Positions 17,970 to 32,000 of a stretch of 32,000 nt of DNA are shown piece after piece. The position numbers and the translations under genes were made by a program. The stretch is from Candidatus Nanohalobium constans (GTDB lineage: Archaea; Nanohalarchaeota; Nanosalinia; Nanosalinales; Nanosalinaceae). The notes under the pieces were generated by a model. The model was not told the origin of the DNA. It ran no database searches and saw only the letters and a program-made list of their open reading frames with translations. Within the stretch, counting starts at the first letter, position 1, and each line of letters begins with the position of its first letter. The stretch is taken from positions 60,001 to 92,000 of the forward strand of contig NZ_CP040089.1 in NCBI RefSeq assembly GCF_009617975.1. The letters are read 5' to 3'.

Positions 17970-18173
17970 ATGAAAGAAGTCGCTGGATACGAGTTTGACG
18001 AAACACATCCCACTGAGCTAAAAGAAGAAGTAGTAACTGAAAAAGAATTCGACAAGATCAAAGAAGCAATGGACCTCGACGACCTAATCCGCTTCGGCAA
18101 AAGACCATTCGACGCACCACCAGGCAAAGTAAGAATCTGGGTAGAAGAAGACGAACCAGAAGAAGAGGAATAA
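17970..18173 (+). CDS. hypothetical small acidic protein (67 aa from ATG 17970)
   Basis: ORF with acidic composition. The listed TTG at 17964 is replaced by the in-frame ATG two codons later. No domain recognised. Confidence 0.5.
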   Translation: MKEVAGYEFDETHPTELKEEVVTEKEFDKIKEAMDLDDLIRFGKRPFDAPPGKVRIWVEEDEPEEEE

Positions 18174-18248
18174 AATCGAAACTTTTCCTCTGTACTTTTC
18201 TATGTCCGGTAATCCTTCATTCAAAACCTGTTTGCGCCTTTAACTTGA

Positions 18249-19226
18249 TTATTCTGAGCTATTGCCATTAATTTTTGCCATTAACTGGGTTAGTACTTGG
18301 CTTTGCGTAACAGGAGGTTTCTCTTGTTCTTGATTCTCCAAAGGATTTTCATGAATTCTATCCATGGCGTCTTTCACAAATTCTCCTGCTTTCTCATCGG
18401 GTAGATCTTCTTTCAGTACTTCTCTATAGGCCATCATAGAAAGGGCAATGTTAGACTTAAACTCGTATTCTTGCATAATTTTCTTTTGTTTAGAGTGGTT
18501 GGAAACAGAAAACCACACAGCTACAGATACCGGTATTAAAAGCGCTATCTTTGCTATAAAAATAGTTCCTGTAGCCATTGAATCAATCTGGTTATATAGA
18601 TGCCAGGAGAAGACTATCAAAGCTGATATAGACAGAATGGATGCGCCGAGCCATGTGAAAACTGATATTCTCAAGTCCTTTTTCCTTTCGTTGAATATTG
18701 ATCCTATCTCTTCGCTTGCCTGACCCTCTACTAAATTACTGCTGGTCTCAAGTAATCGATTTGCCTTTTTCTCGAGTTCGTCTATATCTTCTTTCTTCCT
18801 TTCTATTTCTCTAATCTTTTCGGAAACTCTCTTTTCCTTTGTTGATAGTACTTGCAGTAGGCTGTCAATGCTCTCATCATAGTCTTCTTCGTCATTTAAT
18901 GTTTGATAAATTGCTTTTTCAAGCCGGATACCAGCTTGATTTAGCTCGAACATGTTTTTCTTTGTTACATTCTGTTTAAGTTTGGCGACAGCATGATTTA
19001 TTCCAGCAAGAGATTGCTGAATTTCATCATATTGACCAATTTCTTCTATTTTGCCTGTGTCTACCCAATTTTTTACCCTATCTAGATCCTCTTTTATTTT
19101 ACTTAGTTCTTGGTCTTCTATTCTATCCTTTCTCTCTTCCAAGAAAACATCAGAGTCTTCGATGTTGGCTTTAGCATCCTCCCAGTTAGAGTAGATTTCG
19201 GTTATTTGTTCAGGAGGTTCTGCCAT
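18249..19226 (-). CDS. coiled-coil protein with a C-proximal 2-TM hairpin (325 aa)
   Basis: Long Glu/Lys-rich heptad-like N-terminal half, two TM helices (FTWLGASILSISALIVFSW, IFIAKIALLIPVSVAVWFSV), then a short helical tail. GC is about 30-37% on sampled lines. Confidence 0.7.
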   Translation of the reverse strand: MAEPPEQITEIYSNWEDAKANIEDSDVFLEERKDRIEDQELSKIKEDLDRVKNWVDTGKIEEIGQYDEIQQSLAGINHAVAKLKQNVTKKNMFELNQAGIRLEKAIYQTLNDEEDYDESIDSLLQVLSTKEKRVSEKIREIERKKEDIDELEKKANRLLETSSNLVEGQASEEIGSIFNERKKDLRISVFTWLGASILSISALIVFSWHLYNQIDSMATGTIFIAKIALLIPVSVAVWFSVSNHSKQKKIMQEYEFKSNIALSMMAYREVLKEDLPDEKAGEFVKDAMDRIHENPLENQEQEKPPVTQSQVLTQLMAKINGNSSE

Positions 19227-19388
19227 GGTATCACTTACTCCAATTTTTCATACTTAATTTATTCAGTATTTTGTTAACTTATCCGCTAATATTCTAATTG
19301 CCGCTTTCTCCTACCTACTCTAGTTTATTGTTTAATCAAATTTCCCTCTGGAAATAGGTTGAAAATAAAAATGGAGAGATCGGAGATA

Positions 19389-20417
19389 TTACTCCTCAAT
19401 GTAATCTGGCTTTTCGTGCCCAATTTCTTCCAGAGGGTCAAGCAGTTTTGGGTTTTCTTTGAAGTGTTCTCTTACTGGTTCGAATCTGTCTATTACTTGG
19501 TCTGCTACTGCTTCTTTCAGGTCTAGTGGGTGTAGTTCGCCTGATTCAAAGTCTTCTGCCATTTCTTCGAATTTCTCGTAGTGTAGGTCTCCGCCGTATT
19601 CGTCCTTTCTTTCGACATGCAGTTCTCTGTCGGCGCCGAAGATGAAGACTTCTGCGATTTCGATGACTGGGTTATCTTCTACTTCGCCCTGTGGGCAGTA
19701 TGCGTCTTCAAGTGTTTCTTGGATTCTGCTTGGGTCGGCGTGGAGTGGGAACATCGTATTTTTCTTTGATGAACTCATCTTGTCTCCTTCTCCGCTTAGA
19801 GAGCTCAAGAGAGGCCAGTGCAGGCATGTAGGCTTCTCATATCCCAGTTTCGGTAGTTTTTCTCTTGCGAGCATGTGGATCTTTCTCTGATCTATTCCGG
19901 CTACTGCCAGATCCAGGTCTAGGTGTACGATATCTAGTGCTTGCATCAGAGGGTAGACGACTTGTGATGTATAGATGCTGTCCTGTTCGGATGCTACTTC
20001 GCCCATTGCTCTTTCTCCACGGGTCACGGTTGTGTTCTGTGTCATTCGGAGGATGTCGTGGAAGTACTCTGTGCTTTCCTGGAATTCTCGTCCTTTAACA
20101 TATTCTGCATCAAGTCCGCAGGCTTCAAATGTGGCTTGCCAGTAGTCGACCATGTCCTGGATCCATTCCTCATCTCCTTTCTTGTTAAGATAGGTGTGGA
20201 GGTCTGCGAATAGGATTACGGGCTGGAAGCCGGCTTTCTGTATGTCCTTCATCTTTCGGATCTGAATCCAGTGTCCGAGATGTACAGGGCCGGATGTTTC
20301 GTTGCCGATATAGGCTCTTGGCTCGTCTTTTTCTCTTAGTATTTCTTCAAGTTCTTCTTCCTGTATGATTTCCTCGGTATTTCTGAGAACCAGTTCTTTC
20401 CGTTCTTCAATATCCAT
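19389..20417 (-). CDS. tyrS: tyrosyl-tRNA synthetase, archaeal type
   Basis: HIGH-type HLGH and KMSKS-type KMSSS motifs. Colinear with my recollection of M. jannaschii TyrRS (AYIGNETSGPVHLGH, ADLHTYLN, YPLMQALD, QRKIHMLARE). Confidence 0.95.
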   Translation of the reverse strand: MDIEERKELVLRNTEEIIQEEELEEILREKDEPRAYIGNETSGPVHLGHWIQIRKMKDIQKAGFQPVILFADLHTYLNKKGDEEWIQDMVDYWQATFEACGLDAEYVKGREFQESTEYFHDILRMTQNTTVTRGERAMGEVASEQDSIYTSQVVYPLMQALDIVHLDLDLAVAGIDQRKIHMLAREKLPKLGYEKPTCLHWPLLSSLSGEGDKMSSSKKNTMFPLHADPSRIQETLEDAYCPQGEVEDNPVIEIAEVFIFGADRELHVERKDEYGGDLHYEKFEEMAEDFESGELHPLDLKEAVADQVIDRFEPVREHFKENPKLLDPLEEIGHEKPDYIEE

Positions 20418-28086: not shown

Positions 28087-28109
28087 TACGAAAAGATTCG
28101 GTTTTATCT

Positions 28110-28146
28110 AATAAAAAAGAAAAGGGTTGAACCGGTTAAGCCGGTC
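28110..28146 (-). terminator. hairpin plus oligo-T terminator downstream of P1
   Basis: The minus strand after the stop reads GATTGACCGGCTTAACCGGTTCAACCCTTTTCTTTTTTAT. Stem ACCGG/CCGGT (extendable with one bulge), followed by T4 and T6 runs. Confidence 0.5.
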
Positions 28147-28150
28147 AATC

Positions 28151-28459
28151 TTAGAACATGTTTCCTAGTCCTTCAGCTGCTTCTTCGTCGTCTCCTTCGT
28201 CTTCTTCCTCTTCCTCAGCTTCTTCCTCTTCATCTGCTTCTTCTGCTGAGTCGTCTCCTGAAGGTGCTGGTGCTGCGCCTCCTGCGACTGCTGTCTCCAT
28301 TGCTTCCTGGATGTCTACGTCTTCTAGTGCTGCGACCAGTGCTGCGACTTCTGAATCTTCTACGTCGAGACCTGCTGCGTCGACAATGTCCTGAAGGTTT
28401 TCTTCGTTGATTTCTTTATCTGCTTCTGAAAGTGTCAATGCTGCGTAAATTAGTTCCAT
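28151..28459 (-). CDS. rpl12: ribosomal stalk protein P1 (aL12)
   Basis: MELIYAALTLSEADKEINEENL N-terminal dimerisation domain, an Ala/Gly hinge, and an acidic tail ending EGLGNMF. Confidence 0.93.
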   Translation of the reverse strand: MELIYAALTLSEADKEINEENLQDIVDAAGLDVEDSEVAALVAALEDVDIQEAMETAVAGGAAPAPSGDDSAEEADEEEEAEEEEEDEGDDEEAAEGLGNMF

Positions 28460-28486
28460 AGTTAATCAACCAATGTCTGATTATTC

Positions 28487-28498
28487 AGGGTTCACCCT
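28487..28498. promoter_or_regulatory. palindrome AGGGTTCACCCT in the divergent P1 / HTH-gene promoter region
   Basis: 5-2-5 inverted repeat, 28 nt from the P1 ATG and 30 nt from ATG 28529. It abuts the TATA-like CTTAAAAAC. Confidence 0.3.
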
Positions 28499-28528
28499 TA
28501 AAAACATGTACTGCATAGATGATTACAA

Positions 28529-29248
28529 ATGACTGATATCAAGTTCTCAGACCTGCCTGAAGAGTTCAAGGTTCACCTTTCGGAAAAAGGTAAAGATGAT
28601 CTCTGGCACAGAATAGATGAGTTTGGAGGGATAAAGACTTTGTCTGAGTCTTTTGATTTTTCCCGGTCTAAAATGTATAATTGGAAGAACAAAGACCTAG
28701 CCTTACCAGTTAAATTTGTCAAGAGGATAATGGGAGAAAACAGTACCGATGAAGTAACTGTTTTAAAGGGTAAGGGAAGCAGCAGTTACATTAAAGAACC
28801 TTTTTTTCCGTTAAATGTTTCAAGTGAACTTCTTACAAGAGTAGAAGCATCTGTCAACGAAAACTCTGATGGAACACCTGTCTACATAACCGGTGAAAAG
28901 GTTTTGGCAGACAGGTTTACTGAACTACTTGAACAGCTTGGAAGAGTTGAATACAGTGTTTATTCTCGTGATTCAAGGTTTGAAGTAAGGTATCCCAAGT
29001 TTTTGAACCAGTTATTCCGGGGTATCAGCTATGAAACGAATTTTTCTGCATTGATAGACGAGAAAGGAGAGATAAAAGACGGAACTATTCTCGTCCGTGA
29101 TAGGGAGATAGATATCAGTGATTTTGATGGAAAGCTTTATTCTAGAGAGAAAAGTTTTGAGATAGCTCTTCAAAGAAGTGACTCGGATAAGATTGCTGAG
29201 TTAATGGCTGAAGAATCTACAAAAGTGAGGAGAATGATTGGAAATTGA
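28529..29248 (+). CDS. hypothetical protein with a probable N-terminal helix-turn-helix (239 aa)
   Basis: The HTH-like segment GGIKTLSESFDFSRSKMYNWKNK is followed by a Lys-rich, non-acidic region. GC is about 32-37% on sampled lines. Confidence 0.65.
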   Translation: MTDIKFSDLPEEFKVHLSEKGKDDLWHRIDEFGGIKTLSESFDFSRSKMYNWKNKDLALPVKFVKRIMGENSTDEVTVLKGKGSSSYIKEPFFPLNVSSELLTRVEASVNENSDGTPVYITGEKVLADRFTELLEQLGRVEYSVYSRDSRFEVRYPKFLNQLFRGISYETNFSALIDEKGEIKDGTILVRDREIDISDFDGKLYSREKSFEIALQRSDSDKIAELMAEESTKVRRMIGN

Positions 29249-29276
29249 TTTCAAAATTCTTGTTTAGTTTGTTTAT

Positions 29277-30188
29277 ATGACTGAGTTTTTAGTTACATCG
29301 TACTCTAATCCTGATCTTGATGGAACTGCTTGCTCGTTTGCTTATGCTGAATTTTTGAGGAAGAACAATAAAGAAGCTGAGCCTGGTTTATTCGGGAAAC
29401 CTGATGATGAGGCAAAATTCTTACTTGAAAAGCTCAATCTAAAAATTTCTTCCAGTTTAGATCTGATTGAGGAAGTTAATCAGATTGCTTTGGTTGACGC
29501 TAGTAACTTGGAATGGTTGAACCAGAGTATTGACAAATCCAAAATATCTCAAATAATAGACCATCGTGAGCACAATCTTTCTGAAGAATTCGATGGAGAG
29601 TCTCAGATTGAATTGGTTGGAGCAGCTGCGACCTTGATAGCAGAAAAATTCAAGAACTCCGAAGTAGAGATTTCTGAGGAATCAGCTGAACTTTTATACT
29701 GTGCTATAGCAGATAACACCGTGGATTTTCAAGCCAACGTCACAACCAAGAGAGATAAGGATGCTGCTGATTGGCTAGAAAACAAATTCTCGGATAAGAA
29801 TGTATTGCAAGAGATTTTTTCAGTCAAGTCTGATTTTGACAAACCTGTTTCAGAAAAAGTTAAGAACGACTACTATAACACCAACTTGGCAGGACGCAAG
29901 GTAGGGATTGCCCAAATCGAAGCTTTAGGCGCAGAAAAATTTATTGAAGAAAATTCGGAAGAAATTTTGAGTGTAATGTGGAGATTGAAGCAACGTGAAA
30001 ATCTTGATCACGTTTTCCTAACAAGCATAGATATCAGAGAAGAATTGAATATTTTCACAGCTTTGGAACAATCCAAGAAAATTTTGGAAAATGCCCTCAA
30101 CCTCCAATTTAAAAATAACAAAGCTAAAGACTCCAGAATGCTGCTCAGGAAAGAAATAATACCAAAAGTAAAAGAAGAACTGGAATAA
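29277..30188 (+). CDS. DHH-DHHA2 family phosphoesterase (family II inorganic pyrophosphatase-like)
   Basis: Colinear with my recollection of B. subtilis PpaC: SYSNPDLDGTACS (vs GHQNPDTDTICS), LVDASN (vs LVDHNE), IIDHREH (vs VIDHH), VGAAATLI, AIADNTVDF, IAQIE, and LLRKEIIP (vs VSRKKQVVP) in the DHHA2 part. Confidence 0.85.
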   Translation: MTEFLVTSYSNPDLDGTACSFAYAEFLRKNNKEAEPGLFGKPDDEAKFLLEKLNLKISSSLDLIEEVNQIALVDASNLEWLNQSIDKSKISQIIDHREHNLSEEFDGESQIELVGAAATLIAEKFKNSEVEISEESAELLYCAIADNTVDFQANVTTKRDKDAADWLENKFSDKNVLQEIFSVKSDFDKPVSEKVKNDYYNTNLAGRKVGIAQIEALGAEKFIEENSEEILSVMWRLKQRENLDHVFLTSIDIREELNIFTALEQSKKILENALNLQFKNNKAKDSRMLLRKEIIPKVKEELE

Positions 30189-30194
30189 AAAATT

Positions 30195-30220
30195 AGAAGA
30201 GGGTTATTCCTCTTCTTTTT
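30195..30220. terminator. bidirectional hairpin terminator at the convergent DHH / P0 junction
   Basis: Perfect 8-bp stem AGAAGAGG (30195-30202) / CCTCTTCT (30209-30216) with loop GTTATT containing the P0 stop. T-runs follow on both strands (TTTT on plus, TTTTTTATT on minus). Confidence 0.5.
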
Positions 30221-31178
30221 CTTCGGACTCGTCTTCTGAATCTTCTACAGTCTCTTCTTCCTCTTCTGAGTCACCATTTTCTTCAGCTTCATCTTCTTGG
30301 AGGTCTTCTTTTGCTGCTTCAATGTCTGTTTCTGAATCAACTGCTTCTGCTCCGGATGCTGCGTAGCTGATTGCTTCTTCGATTGTTTCTTCTTCTGGTA
30401 ATCCTTCGCTGATTGCCAGGTTCTTGGCTTTCTGGACTGCTTCGCTGACAATTGCCTGCGCTGTTGTTTCGTTGATGATTCCTGCGTTGACTGCAAGATT
30501 GAATGCCTGTGAAGCTGCTGCTTCGACATCTGTTCTGTACTGTTCTGTGTCGATGTCAAGTTCTTCAGCACTGAAGAGTTCTCCTTCATTGTATGCTACA
30601 TCTAGTGTCAGTCCGATTTCCAGTGGTTCGATCCCCATCTGGTTTAGGATTTCTGCATCTTCGGCTGTGATGGTTTCTCCTTTTTCGACGATTACTCCGT
30701 CATTTTGTACATGGATGCTTCCGTCGTCTACCTGTACTTGGAGTCCTGCTTGCTGCAGTTTTCCAAGCATCGGTCCTGGACCTATTCCAGTGTCGCCTTC
30801 AGGGACTACGATATCGTTCGGAGCTGTCTCTCCTCCCTGTGCAGCTGCGGAAGTCTTGTTCTCCTGAATCAGCTGATAGAGCTGGAAAGGGTCTTTGTTC
30901 GAGAAGATGAATGCTGGCTGAGTTGCATCGTTATCTTCAAGCTGTTCGATATCTTCTTTCTCAGCTTTCTCGATTGCGATCTGCATCAAGGTTTTTCTGC
31001 TCATCTTGATGTCTGCGAACTCTTTCATCTCCTTCTTCATCTGCTGTAGCTGTCTTGAAGGAAGGTTGTGCATGTCTAGGAGTCCGACTACAGGGTAGTC
31101 TTCGATCTTGGTCTTGAACTCTTCGACTTTCTCTTCTTTCTGTTCTCTGGTCATCTGTTTTGGAATTGGCTGGACCAT
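30204..31178 (-). CDS. rplP0: ribosomal stalk protein P0 (uL10)
   Basis: uL10 N-terminal domain and stalk helices. Long acidic C-terminal tail. The ATG follows the uL1 stop after 1 nt (TAGAATG). Confidence 0.93.
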   Translation of the reverse strand: MVQPIPKQMTREQKEEKVEEFKTKIEDYPVVGLLDMHNLPSRQLQQMKKEMKEFADIKMSRKTLMQIAIEKAEKEDIEQLEDNDATQPAFIFSNKDPFQLYQLIQENKTSAAAQGGETAPNDIVVPEGDTGIGPGPMLGKLQQAGLQVQVDDGSIHVQNDGVIVEKGETITAEDAEILNQMGIEPLEIGLTLDVAYNEGELFSAEELDIDTEQYRTDVEAAASQAFNLAVNAGIINETTAQAIVSEAVQKAKNLAISEGLPEEETIEEAISYAASGAEAVDSETDIEAAKEDLQEDEAEENGDSEEEEETVEDSEDESEEKEEE

Positions 31179-31179
31179 T

Positions 31180-31806
31180 CTAATTCACCTCTACTGTTGG
31201 ACCCATGGTGGTCTTGATTAAGACATTCTTGAGATTGTTGTCGCCTTTAGGAAGGTGGTTGGATACGAATTCGTAGATTGTATCTGCGTTCATGGCGACA
31301 TTTCCTAGGTCCTGTTCTTCGTTTCCGATTTTAACCTGCATCAAAGGATCTTCAGCAAGTCTGAGAGTTACCGTATTTCTCAGGTCTTCAATGTCTTCTG
31401 AAGGATCTTCTCCAGGCTGTACTGGGTCCGGCATCATGTTTCTTGGACCGAGTACCTGTCCTAACTGAGAACCGATCTTAGGCATCAGTGGTGCCTCTGC
31501 CAGGAGGAATGTAAACTCTTCTGCAAGGTCTTTTGCGTTGGAAGGCTCGTCGAAGTACTCGTCTTCCAGTTCGTTCTCTGTAATGACCTTGTCGGCGTTG
31601 TCAAGGTTCTGAGTAATTGAATCCCCAATTACTGCAACCTTGATCTCTTCGTCTGCCTGATAAGGAAGTTTGATGTCTTCGTTGAAACGATTGTTAGGAT
31701 CAGAAAGATCCAGGTCTCTAAAGTTGAAGACTAGGTCAACTGATTCTGTAAAGTTTCTGTCTTCTGCTTCTTCTACTGCTTGTTCAACTGCTTCTTCGAA
31801 ATTCAT
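31180..31806 (-). CDS. rpl1: ribosomal protein uL1
   Basis: Typical uL1 pattern (FTESVDLVFNFRDLDL, LGPRNMMP). Position between uL11 and P0. Confidence 0.95.
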   Translation of the reverse strand: MNFEEAVEQAVEEAEDRNFTESVDLVFNFRDLDLSDPNNRFNEDIKLPYQADEEIKVAVIGDSITQNLDNADKVITENELEDEYFDEPSNAKDLAEEFTFLLAEAPLMPKIGSQLGQVLGPRNMMPDPVQPGEDPSEDIEDLRNTVTLRLAEDPLMQVKIGNEEQDLGNVAMNADTIYEFVSNHLPKGDNNLKNVLIKTTMGPTVEVN

Positions 31807-31862: not shown

Positions 31863-32000
31863 CTAGATTCCCTCCTCGTTTTTGAGTTGATCATCGTATT
31901 TTCCTTCGTCAATTTCTTTTCCGACTTCGTAGGCATCTTTGCCGTCAACTGTGATTCCAGCTGAATTGGCGGAACCGATGACTTCCTTGACTGCTCCTCG
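31863..32000 (-). CDS. rpl11: ribosomal protein uL11, C-terminal 45 aa (5' end outside the window)
   Basis: My own translation of the minus strand: [45 protein letters not shown], then stop. This is a typical uL11 C-terminal domain, in the position upstream of uL1. Confidence 0.85.

What the first reader, a model, noticed from the sequence alone, without database searches (positions are those of the whole stretch)
28460..30203. Low-GC two-gene insertion on the opposite strand splits the ribosomal stalk operon between P0 and P1
Seen: on the minus strand uL11, uL1 and P0 are contiguous (the uL1 stop and P0 ATG are separated by 1 nt). P1, however, is separated from P0 by 1.7 kb carrying two plus-strand genes, an HTH protein and a DHH-DHHA2 phosphoesterase. 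My hand counts on sampled 60-nt lines give about 32-37% GC in the insert (one line at 50%), against about 47-58% in P0, uL1 and P1. The inserted proteins are Lys-rich rather than acidic. The junction with P0 is a perfect 8-bp hairpin whose loop contains the P0 stop. Established: uL11-uL1-uL10(P0)-L12(P1) is normally contiguous and co-transcribed in archaea. Inference: this is a relatively recent insertion of foreign DNA that forces P1 onto its own promoter. No integrase, repeats or target duplication are visible, so the mechanism is unknown.
Basis: partly seen in the sequence, partly recalled or inferred. Interest (0 to 1): 0.6.

Follow-up and report, generated by a model that had tools for sequence, protein, structure and literature searches.

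The report
Old homing-endonuclease relic splits stalk operon
The ribosomal stalk genes P0 and P1 are indeed separated here. The cause is not one recent foreign insert but an old, catalytically degenerate homing-endonuclease-like gene that sits at this same junction in many tiny (DPANN) archaea, plus a later lineage-specific phosphoesterase gene.

Summary
P1 (28151-28459, -) and P0 (30204-31178, -) are separated by two plus-strand genes at 36.8% GC, and an 8-9 bp hairpin lies over the P0 stop.

The interpretation of one recent foreign insertion does not hold. These are two events of different age.

(1) The 239-aa "HTH protein" is an Xre-type HTH fused to a LAGLIDADG homing-endonuclease fold.
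- It is single-copy, divergent from P1 and convergent on P0, in 45 of 50 genomes of the window's family. It was found in 1 of 20 genomes of the sister families, where P1 directly follows P0.
- One sister-family genome (G069) carries the cassette at the same junction, while its congener has an empty site with a 13-nt spacer.
- Relatives of about 370 aa with intact catalytic residues sit between P0 and P1 in Woesearchaeota and Nanoarchaeota MAGs.
- In the window's family the catalytic positions are lost (invariant Ser108, variable K179), yet the gene is under purifying selection.

(2) The DHH-DHHA2 gene fills a variable slot. It was found in 2 of 70 genomes of the phylum.

Low GC mainly reflects amino-acid composition set against GC-rich neighbours. 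Codon usage and dinucleotide signature are native. A conserved TATA-like box and Shine-Dalgarno sequence in the spacer suggest that P1 has long had its own promoter.

The parts
28151..28459 (-). Ribosomal stalk protein P1 (aL12), 102 aa, detached from P0
   Evidence: Pfam Ribosomal_60s, E = 1.2e-12. Orthologues lie next to the LAGLIDADG-like gene in all 45 genomes examined.
28460..28528 (.). 69-nt divergent spacer between P1 and the 239-aa gene. It holds a Shine-Dalgarno-like TCAACC (reverse complement GGTTGA; family consensus TCACC, i.e. GGTGA) at 28466-28471, a conserved ACCCTTAAAAA TATA-like box at 28494-28504, and a conserved CATAGATGATTACAA block at 28514-28528.
   Evidence: An alignment of 20 family spacers shows these three blocks conserved, with a variable stretch of about 25 nt between them. 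The same motifs travel with the cassette in the family-f4 genome G069. Promoter function is inferred, not shown.
28529..29248 (+). 239-aa HTH + degenerate LAGLIDADG protein. The Xre/Cro-type HTH covers about residues 16-78 (nt 28574-28762). The LAGLIDADG fold covers about residues 95-220 (nt 28811-29188).
   Evidence: No Pfam or NCBIfam hit. AF2 model pLDDT 93.7. VIA-align Z 9.3 to PI-PfuI and 9.2 to I-Tsp061I, WhiA 7.3, Xre HTHs about 5. Profile homology to proteins carrying Pfam LAGLIDADG_3. Catalytic positions are Ser108 (invariant) and K179 (variable). dN/dS is about 0.08.
29249..29276 (+). 28-nt T-rich spacer between the 239-aa gene and the DHH gene. It may contain a TATA-like TTTCAAAAT at about -28 from the DHH ATG.
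   Evidence: Sequence read directly. Promoter function is an inference only.
29277..30188 (+). DHH-DHHA2 phosphoesterase of 303 aa. It is family-II-pyrophosphatase-like, of a Tyr9/DHR subfamily, and is lineage-specific cargo of the variable slot.
   Evidence: Pfam DHH + DHHA2. NCBIfam PRK05427 scores 157 bits, below the 283-bit cut-off. PDB family II PPases match at E = 7e-24. The Y9 and DHR signature is present in 119-120 of 120 homologues. Found only in G000 and G063 among 70 phylum genomes.
30195..30216 (.). 8-9 bp hairpin over the P0 stop codon with T-runs on both strands. It is a bidirectional terminator-like element belonging to the 3' end of P0.
   Evidence: Equivalent purine-run pairing with the poly-Glu codons is seen in relatives without DHH.
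30204..31178 (-). Ribosomal stalk protein P0 (uL10), 324 aa
   Evidence: Pfam Ribosomal_L10 + RL10P_insert.
31180..31806 (-). Ribosomal protein uL1, 208 aa. Its stop lies 1 nt before the P0 ATG.
   Evidence: Pfam Ribosomal_L1. Coordinates.

Best explanation
The stalk operon is split by two unrelated insertions of different age.

(1) The old insertion is a free-standing LAGLIDADG homing-endonuclease-type gene with an N-terminal Xre-type HTH. It entered the P0|P1 junction no later than the common ancestor of the window's family. The cassette carries its own compact promoter region, and P1 is probably now transcribed from that region, divergently. In this family the gene is fixed, single-copy and shortened: the second half-domain is truncated and the C-terminal winged helix is lost. 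It has lost the canonical catalytic acidic residues but is under purifying selection. It most likely survives as a sequence-specific DNA-binding protein, analogous to WhiA. It may regulate the shared promoter region with P1. That last step is inferred.

Relatives of about 370 aa with intact catalytic motifs occupy the same P0|P1 junction, co-oriented with the operon, in Woesearchaeota and Nanoarchaeota MAGs, where they are sporadic. Within one sister-family genus, a filled site and an empty site coexist. Both facts point to homing-like mobility aimed at this junction.

(2) The younger event concerns the 3'-to-3' gap between the LAGLIDADG-like gene and the P0 terminator. This gap is a variable slot whose content differs between genomes. 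In this lineage it acquired a DHH-DHHA2 phosphoesterase of a halophile-adapted clade.

The low GC reflects amino-acid composition next to unusually GC-rich neighbours. It does not indicate unameliorated foreign DNA.
For: Synteny
- In all family genomes examined, P1 and the 239-aa gene are divergent neighbours. Start-to-start distance is 62-115 nt in 40 of 45. P0 lies convergent, 0-4 kb away.
- In the 14 f3/f4 genomes among the 40 nearest relatives, P1 directly follows P0 and AlaRS lies downstream.

Distribution
- The A1 profile finds one copy in 45/50 family genomes. The five negatives are 77-89% complete. It finds none in 10 f3, 1 f2 and 1 f5 genomes, and one in 8 f4 genomes.

Filled and empty site
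- G069 has an f4-type P0 (80% identical to congener G030, support 99*) and an f4-type P1, flanking the cassette with the same spacer motifs.
- G030 has the P0 stop, 13 nt, then the P1 ATG.

Fold and homology.

Catalytic residues
- The 370-aa relatives have invariant DG and DDEG motifs.
- The window's family has an invariant Ser and a variable residue at those positions.

Selection: pN 0.13 against pS 0.68 for the closest pair.

Lateral exchange
- Genus g1 is monophyletic for P0 (96/97*).
- It splits four ways in the tree of the 239-aa protein. The AU test rejects its monophyly (p = 1.8e-30).

Other DPANN
- Seven of seven close 370-aa relatives lie between P0 and P1.
- Only 7 of 201 genomes of one Woesearchaeota-type order carry any full-length relative, and 2 of these are the P0|P1 type.

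Slot variability.

DHH gene
- Found in 2/70 phylum genomes.
- The nearest homologues (49-70% identity) are acidic, unlike the CPR/DPANN homologues at about 45%.

Composition.
Against: - No transcript data exist, so P1's own promoter and any regulatory role of the 239-aa protein are inferences.
- The tree does not resolve whether the nanohaloarchaeal clade is sister to the stalk-located 370-aa clade. A joint clan is neither recovered nor rejected (delta lnL 2.2, AU p = 0.35). Shared location could therefore be common descent or convergence.
- The window's gene is on the opposite strand from the operon, unlike the Woesearchaeota-type copies. Simple homology-driven homing does not predict this.
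- Glu178 is invariant, one position off the canonical catalytic site. Some orthologues keep Glu at the canonical motif-2 position. Residual nicking activity is therefore not excluded.
- G069 is a 71%-complete, 200-contig MAG, and its cassette lies on a 4-kb contig.
- P0 alone served as the species proxy.
Confidence: 0.75

Rival explanations
1. One reading: one recent insertion of a two-gene block of foreign, low-GC DNA.
For: GC of 36.8% is in the lowest 0.34% of genome windows. Tetranucleotide distance is in the top 4.4%. The DHH gene was not found in the three other genomes of the genus.
Against: The two genes have unrelated distributions, 45/50 family genomes against 2/70 phylum genomes. The position of the 239-aa gene is conserved family-wide. 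Synonymous sites are saturated. Codon usage and dinucleotide signature are typical. The low GC of the 239-aa gene recurs in 17 of 19 relatives.
Confidence: 0.03
2. The 239-aa gene is still a selfish, active homing endonuclease or nickase that uses non-canonical residues, and is not a domesticated DNA-binding protein.
For: Filled and empty sites coexist within genus g26. Alleles have been replaced between genera in g1. Glu178 is invariant, and Glu sits at the canonical motif-2 position in some orthologues, including G069.
Against: The motif-1 catalytic Asp is replaced by an invariant Ser in every member, and the motif-2 position is unconstrained. The second half-domain is truncated. The gene is fixed in the family, whereas its relatives are sporadic (7/201) in a Woesearchaeota-type order. 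Most genera are monophyletic in its tree: 24 label changes against a minimum of 20.
Confidence: 0.15
3. The gene is an ancient, vertically inherited member of the DPANN stalk operon with a ribosome-related function. It has been lost many times and is not a mobile element.
For: Relatives lie between P0 and P1 in Woesearchaeota, Nanoarchaeota and Nanohaloarchaeota. They are tightly packed and co-oriented with the operon there. A joint clan is not rejected.
Against: The distribution is very sporadic: 2 P0|P1-type copies in 201 genomes of one order, and 79 clusters in 1.84 billion representatives. The 370-aa forms keep intact homing-endonuclease catalytic motifs. Sister clades sit at other conserved genes such as endA. 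An empty site exists in a congener. The gene tree is discordant with P0.
Confidence: 0.1
4. The DHH-DHHA2 gene is ancestral to the genus or family at this slot and was lost elsewhere, rather than gained in the window's lineage.
For: A second family member (G063) has a 42%-identical copy. Codon usage is native. The nearest metagenomic homologues (62-70% identity) are acidic, so they may be unsampled nanohaloarchaea.
Against: The gene was not found in 48 of 49 other family genomes, including three of the same genus. G063's copy has no P0, P1 or 239-aa gene within the fetched flanks of about 1.5 kb. Slot contents differ among genomes, which points to turnover.
Confidence: 0.15

Closest known systems
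WhiA (bacterial DUF199), a domesticated LAGLIDADG protein with an HTH that acts as a transcription factor (PMC3240954, PMC10243135)
   Same: It combines a LAGLIDADG scaffold lacking the catalytic acidic residues with a helix-turn-helix domain. It is structurally similar (Z 7.3 to 8dy9_I and 6.3 to 3hyi_A). It is conserved as a single-copy host gene.
   Different: No sequence or Pfam relationship to WhiA was found. The domain order is reversed, with the HTH at the N terminus. The second LAGLIDADG half is truncated. The lineage is archaeal. Function is untested.
Archaeal intron- and intein-encoded LAGLIDADG homing endonucleases (I-Tsp061I, I-DmoI, PI-PfuI)
   Same: These are the best structural matches (Z 9.2-9.3, 124 residues aligned). 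The family shows presence/absence at a precise site in a highly conserved informational locus.
   Different: The gene is free-standing in an intergenic spacer, not inside an intron or intein. It carries an extra Xre-type HTH. The catalytic Asp/Glu are lost in the window's family.
Free-standing homing endonuclease genes inserted between conserved genes, such as the phage T4 seg/mob genes ('intronless homing'; from my own knowledge), and LAGLIDADG genes in rRNA insertion sequences of CPR bacteria (PMC11270868)
   Same: A stand-alone endonuclease-type gene sits between conserved genes, is sporadic among relatives, and appears to be exchanged laterally at a fixed site.
   Different: The host is a DPANN archaeon. 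The site is the ribosomal stalk operon. The copy here is fixed and apparently inactive.
Family II (Mn-dependent) inorganic pyrophosphatase PpaC
   Same: The DHH + DHHA2 architecture aligns over its full length to solved PPases. Asp13, Asp15, Asp74, His96, Asp146 and the C-terminal Arg-Lys are conserved.
   Different: The metal ligand His9 is Tyr, and the second His of the DHH motif is Arg. Both changes are present in all or almost all of 120 homologues. The score is below the NCBIfam equivalog cut-off. The genome also has a canonical family I PPase.

Membership tests
LAGLIDADG homing endonucleases | alpha-beta-beta-alpha-beta-beta-alpha LAGLIDADG fold | tested here: met
   AF2 model pLDDT 93.7. 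All top Foldseek hits are LAGLIDADG enzymes. VIA-align Z 9.3 and 9.2 over 124 residues.
LAGLIDADG homing endonucleases | Sequence homology to recognised LAGLIDADG domains | tested here: met
   Pfam does not hit the window protein itself. A profile of its orthologues does hit proteins of 290-500 aa that carry Pfam LAGLIDADG_3, and the motifs align.
LAGLIDADG homing endonucleases | Conserved acidic catalytic residue at the end of each LAGLIDADG helix | tested here: not met
   The motif-1 Asp is replaced by the invariant Ser108. The motif-2 position is K179 and varies across orthologues. The 370-aa relatives keep DG and DDEG.
LAGLIDADG homing endonucleases | Site-specific presence/absence (homing) at a conserved target | tested here: met
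   This was shown for the gene family, not for the window copy. G069 has a filled site and G030 an empty site in one genus. Seven of seven close 370-aa relatives lie at the P0|P1 junction.
LAGLIDADG homing endonucleases | Site-specific DNA cleavage | not testable with these tools
   This needs a purified protein and an empty-site substrate.
WhiA-type domesticated LAGLIDADG regulators | Catalytically dead LAGLIDADG scaffold combined with an HTH | tested here: met
   The domain order is the reverse of WhiA.
WhiA-type domesticated LAGLIDADG regulators | Sequence membership in the WhiA families | tested here: not met
   No Pfam or NCBIfam family matched at E <= 0.01 and E <= 1 respectively. The resemblance is structural only.
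Family II inorganic pyrophosphatase | DHH + DHHA2 two-domain architecture | tested here: met
   Pfam PF01368 + PF02833. Full-length alignment to 1k23 and 9m0m.
Family II inorganic pyrophosphatase | Score above the curated equivalog cut-off | tested here: not met
   NF003877 scores 157 bits against a cut-off of 283.
Family II inorganic pyrophosphatase | His9 and the second His of the DHH motif (B. subtilis numbering) | tested here: not met
   Tyr9 and DHR replace them. Tyr is present in 119/120 and Arg in 120/120 homologues.
Genomic island / integrative element | Integrase, tRNA target, flanking direct repeats | tested here: not met
   No recombinase ORF or Pfam hit. No tRNA gene in the window. 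No repeat brackets either gene.
Genomic island / integrative element | Atypical composition | tested here: inconclusive
   GC is low, at the 2.5th and 5.2th gene percentiles. However, GC3 is at the 12th-15th, synonymous codon usage at the 41st-44th, and dinucleotide delta* at the 50th percentile.
Canonical archaeal stalk operon uL11-uL1-P0-P1 | P1 immediately downstream of P0 on the same strand | tested here: not met
   In the window, 1744 nt carrying two opposite-strand genes intervene. The feature is met in the 14 f3/f4 genomes among the 40 nearest relatives.

The most novel reading that the evidence does not exclude
A lineage of HTH-LAGLIDADG homing endonucleases targets the P0|P1 junction of the ribosomal stalk operon across DPANN archaea. 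In one nanohaloarchaeal family it has been domesticated into a DNA-binding regulator. There it supplies and controls the promoter of the detached P1 gene, so that P1 dosage is set independently of P0.
Probability: 0.25. Interest if true: 0.7.

Novelty: new variant of a known kind. Interest (0 to 1): 0.55.

Why it matters
The uL11-uL1-P0-P1 cluster is one of the most conserved gene orders in archaea.

Showing that a homing-endonuclease-type gene repeatedly occupies the P0|P1 junction in DPANN lineages gives a concrete mechanism for the break-up of a core ribosomal operon. In one family the gene has been fixed, inverted and inactivated while bringing a new promoter for P1. This also adds an archaeal candidate, independent of WhiA, for domestication of a LAGLIDADG enzyme into a DNA-binding protein.

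There is a practical caution as well. A strong local GC dip here does not mark recent foreign DNA. It arises from amino-acid composition next to very GC-rich, acidic ribosomal genes.

I found no report of this arrangement in the paper library searched.

Tried and rejected
The contexts of the closest DHH homologues (P0002 at 70%, P0121 at 62%) could therefore not be read.
- A metagenome scan with P0121 found no confirmed locus.
- A phage search with the 239-aa protein gave no match.
- A plasmid search with DHH gave only distant hits of at most 33%, the best on a Halorussus plasmid.
- The palindrome in the P1 spacer (AGGGT..ACCCT, ACATGT) is not conserved in relatives. Only the right arm, which is part of the TATA-like block, is conserved. 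I dropped it as an operator candidate.
- G000 AlaRS first looked closer to genus g2 (88%). That was an artefact of comparing only the N-terminal 375-418 residues. DNA identities are similar for both genera, 74-76%. No large transferred tract is claimed.
- P1 (N-terminal 55 aa) also shows discordant identities, for example G003 at 93% to G019 but 82% to G000. The segment is too short, so I report it only as suggestive of co-conversion.
- The test of whether the nanohaloarchaeal clade is sister to the stalk-located 370-aa clade was inconclusive.
- Sigma-70-type promoter hits were ignored as irrelevant to archaea.
Full report
**Genome and map**

The window is G000:C1:60001-92000 of a single-contig genome of 973,463 bp with 43.2% GC. 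These figures equal those published for Candidatus Nanohalobium constans LC1Nh (PMC7443923), so it is very probably that organism.

On the minus strand lie uL11 (ending just beyond position 31863), uL1 (31180-31806), P0 (30204-31178) and P1 (28151-28459). Between P0 and P1, on the plus strand, lie a 239-aa ORF (28529-29248) and a DHH+DHHA2 protein (29277-30188).

**Composition**

The 1744-bp segment has 36.8% GC. That is z = -3.3 and the lowest 0.34% of genome windows of that size. Three results weaken the inference of foreign DNA.

- I made a crude set of 966 ORF-based genes. In it, the two genes are at the 5.2th and 2.5th percentile for total GC. They are only at the 12th and 15th for GC3, and at the 41st and 44th for deviation in synonymous codon usage.
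- The neighbours are extreme in the other direction. P1 is at the 98.8th GC percentile, the membrane protein at the 94th, AlaRS at the 93.5th and P0 at the 85.6th.
- Tetranucleotide distance is in the top 4.4%. The GC-normalised dinucleotide signature is at the median.

In addition, the orthologue of the 239-aa gene is GC-poorer than the flanking P0 and P1 in 17 of 19 relatives. The dip is therefore mostly a matter of amino-acid composition: fewer Asp, Glu, Ala and Gly codons than in the very acidic stalk proteins. It is a stable property of the gene.

The DHH protein is itself acidic. Its net charge is at the 46th percentile, and only its Lys content is high.

**Synteny**

The 239-aa gene has one orthologue in 23 of 24 same-family genomes in a protein search. 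A profile search finds it in 45 of 50, and the five negatives are 77-89% complete.

In all 45 it is divergent from P1. Start-to-start distance is 62-115 nt in 40 of them. It is convergent on P0, which lies 0-4 kb away. AlaRS follows P1 wherever the contig extends far enough.

In the 14 genomes of sister families f3 and f4 among the 40 nearest relatives, P1 directly follows P0 and AlaRS lies downstream. The ancestral order uL1-P0-P1-(membrane protein)-AlaRS was therefore interrupted once, at the P0|P1 junction, no later than the family's common ancestor.

**What the 239-aa protein is**

Pfam and NCBIfam find nothing. An AlphaFold model built on 20 orthologues is confident, with pLDDT 93.7.

- All top Foldseek hits are LAGLIDADG enzymes.
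- VIA-align gives Z 9.3 to PI-PfuI and 9.2 to I-Tsp061I over residues 95-220. It gives 7.3 to WhiA and about 5 to Xre/Cro HTH domains over residues 16-78.
- A profile search of 1.84 billion representatives finds 30 orthologue clusters. It also finds about 45 more distant proteins of 290-500 aa.
- These distant proteins carry Pfam LAGLIDADG_3, a Cro-like N-terminal HTH and often a C-terminal ArsR/MarR winged helix.

In the relatives of about 370 aa, the two LAGLIDADG motifs end in an invariant DG and DDEG. In the window's family, motif 1 has a 3-residue deletion and an invariant Ser108 at the catalytic position. The catalytic position of motif 2 is K179 here and varies among orthologues. The second half-domain is truncated and the winged helix is absent.

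The gene is nevertheless constrained. There are 20 invariant columns. For the closest pair, pN is 0.13 against pS 0.68, giving dN/dS of about 0.08. Synonymous sites are saturated in the other pairs.

**Evidence that the cassette is or was mobile and aimed at this junction**

*(a) A filled and an empty site within one genus.* G069 belongs to family f4. Its P0 is sister to that of its congener G030 (80% identity, support 99*) and lies inside f4 (98*). Its 4-kb contig carries the following, in order:
- P0;
- a 126-aa ORF;
- the LAGLIDADG-like gene on the opposite strand;
- a 72-nt spacer with the same TCACC, TTTAAAA and CATAGCTGAATACAA motifs as in the window's family;
- P1.

G030 has the P0 stop, then 13 nt including the Shine-Dalgarno sequence, then the P1 ATG.

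*(b) Discordant trees.* Genus g1 (G000-G003) is monophyletic for P0 (96/97*). In the tree of the 239-aa protein:
- G001 joins genus g19 (100/100*);
- G003 joins g17 (98/94*);
- G002 nests in g2 (98/89*);
- G000 is sister to the g2 group (94/74).

The AU test rejects g1 monophyly (delta lnL 158, p = 1.8e-30). Most other genera are monophyletic, with 24 label changes against a minimum of 20. Exchange is therefore occasional. It is not demonstrated for the window's own copy.

*(c) Other DPANN phyla.* A genome scan with the 370-aa relatives returned ten loci from Woesearchaeota, Nanoarchaeota and related MAGs. All six close relatives, plus a seventh found later, lie between P0 and P1. They are co-oriented with the operon and often only 0-4 nt from their neighbours. 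More distant clades sit elsewhere, twice beside the tRNA-splicing endonuclease gene.

In one Woesearchaeota-type order, only 7 of 201 genomes have any full-length relative, and 2 of these are the P0|P1 type. That is the sporadic pattern of a mobile gene.

Whether the nanohaloarchaeal clade is specifically sister to the stalk-located clade is unresolved. A joint clan is not recovered but not rejected (AU p = 0.35).

**The P1 promoter**

Spacers from 20 family genomes share the following layout:
- the P1 start codon;
- 8-10 nt;
- TCACC, the reverse complement of a GGTGA Shine-Dalgarno sequence (G000 has GGTTGA);
- about 25 variable nt;
- ACCCTTAAAAA;
- about 9 variable nt;
- CATAGNTGANTACAA, followed by the start codon of the 239-aa gene.

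Such nucleotide conservation, where synonymous sites are saturated, implies function. The geometry fits a near-leaderless transcript for the 239-aa gene. It also fits a P1 transcript starting just upstream of its Shine-Dalgarno sequence. The two might share the single TATA-like box. This is inference, because no transcript data were available.

P0 ends in a hairpin with T-runs on both strands. Relatives without DHH have the equivalent purine run pairing with the poly-Glu codons of P0. The hairpin is therefore P0's own 3' element, not an insertion scar.

**The slot and the DHH gene**

Between the 3' ends of the LAGLIDADG-like gene and P0, genomes differ.

- Many have nothing there, including the congener G001.
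- G004 has a glyoxalase-fold gene.
- G008, G011 and G014 have an orthologous MATCAP-like gene, which lies elsewhere in G000 (C1:638852-640018).
- Other genomes have unrelated ORFs of about 200, 400 or 930 aa.
- G000 has the DHH gene.

The DHH-DHHA2 protein aligns over its full length to family II pyrophosphatases. It has Tyr in place of His9 and DHR in place of DHH. This signature is shared by 119-120 of its 120 best homologues, many of them from CPR bacteria and DPANN archaea. It scores below the equivalog cut-off. The genome also encodes a canonical family I pyrophosphatase.

Only G000 and G063 among 70 genomes of the phylum carry it. G063's copy is 42% identical, and no stalk gene or 239-aa gene lies within the fetched flanks of about 1.5 kb. 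The closest metagenomic homologues (49-70% identity) are acidic like halophile proteins, unlike the homologues at about 45%. This points to acquisition from another hypersaline-adapted lineage, long enough ago for codon usage to look native.

No integrase, tRNA gene or bracketing repeat accompanies it.

**Verdict**

The interesting element is the "HTH protein", not the GC dip. It is a fixed, degenerate member of a LAGLIDADG family tied to the P0|P1 junction in DPANN archaea.

**Limits**

- There are no expression or biochemical data.
- P0 was the only species proxy.
- One key locus (G069) comes from a fragmented MAG.

No report of this arrangement turned up in the literature library.

Noticed in passing
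window 28345-28363 and 30230-30248: A 19-nt direct repeat matching at 18 of 19 positions (CG[A/T]CTTCTGAATCTTCTAC) lies in P1 and in the acidic tail of P0, so it brackets the whole insert. The TCTTCTGAATC core (Asp-Ser-Glu codons) recurs in the P0 tails of relatives, so it is probably a compositional coincidence.
   Followed up: partly
window 29277-30188; proteins P0001-P0120: The DHH-DHHA2 homologues form a subfamily with Tyr in place of the metal-ligand His9 and DHR in place of DHH. The changes are present in 119-120 of 120 sequences, many from CPR bacteria and DPANN archaea. Substrate and metal use may differ from classical family II pyrophosphatases.
   Followed up: partly
G028 (family f5): C13:85063-85905 and C2:28831-29130; locus L066: In this sister-family genome P0 and P1 lie on different contigs. 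No P1 or AlaRS was found within 3 kb downstream of P0. This may be another, independent split of the stalk operon.
   Followed up: no
L031, L033, L035 (G008, G011, G014) and G000:C1:638852-640018: An orthologous MATCAP-like gene of about 410 aa (Pfam PF08014) occupies the slot between P0 and the LAGLIDADG-like gene in three genera, but lies about 550 kb away in the window's genome.
   Followed up: partly
L103:3641-4765 and L104:3527-4633: More distant HTH-LAGLIDADG relatives (27-30% identity) lie next to the tRNA-splicing endonuclease gene in two unrelated MAGs. This suggests a second site-specific lineage of the family.
   Followed up: no
L098:3371-3892 and L100:1094-1423: In two Woesearchaeota-type loci an extra small ORF (173 and 109 aa) lies between P0 and the LAGLIDADG gene. 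A variable slot next to P0 may therefore exist there too.
   Followed up: no
window 18001-19500; genome windows near 359700, 387700, 591700, 650800, 963700 and 971400: There are other regions of GC at or below 37-38%, in the window and in the genome. The stalk-locus dip is one of seven such regions.
   Followed up: no
L036 (G015:C3:764000-768100): In G015 about 2 kb, including runs of N, separates P1 from the LAGLIDADG-like gene, unlike the roughly 70-nt spacer seen elsewhere. This could be a further insertion or a scaffolding artefact.
   Followed up: no
window 28100-28150 (-): A terminator-like GACCGG..CCGGTT stem followed by a T-run lies just downstream of P1, but its fold is not better than shuffled sequence (z = -0.8).
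   Followed up: partly
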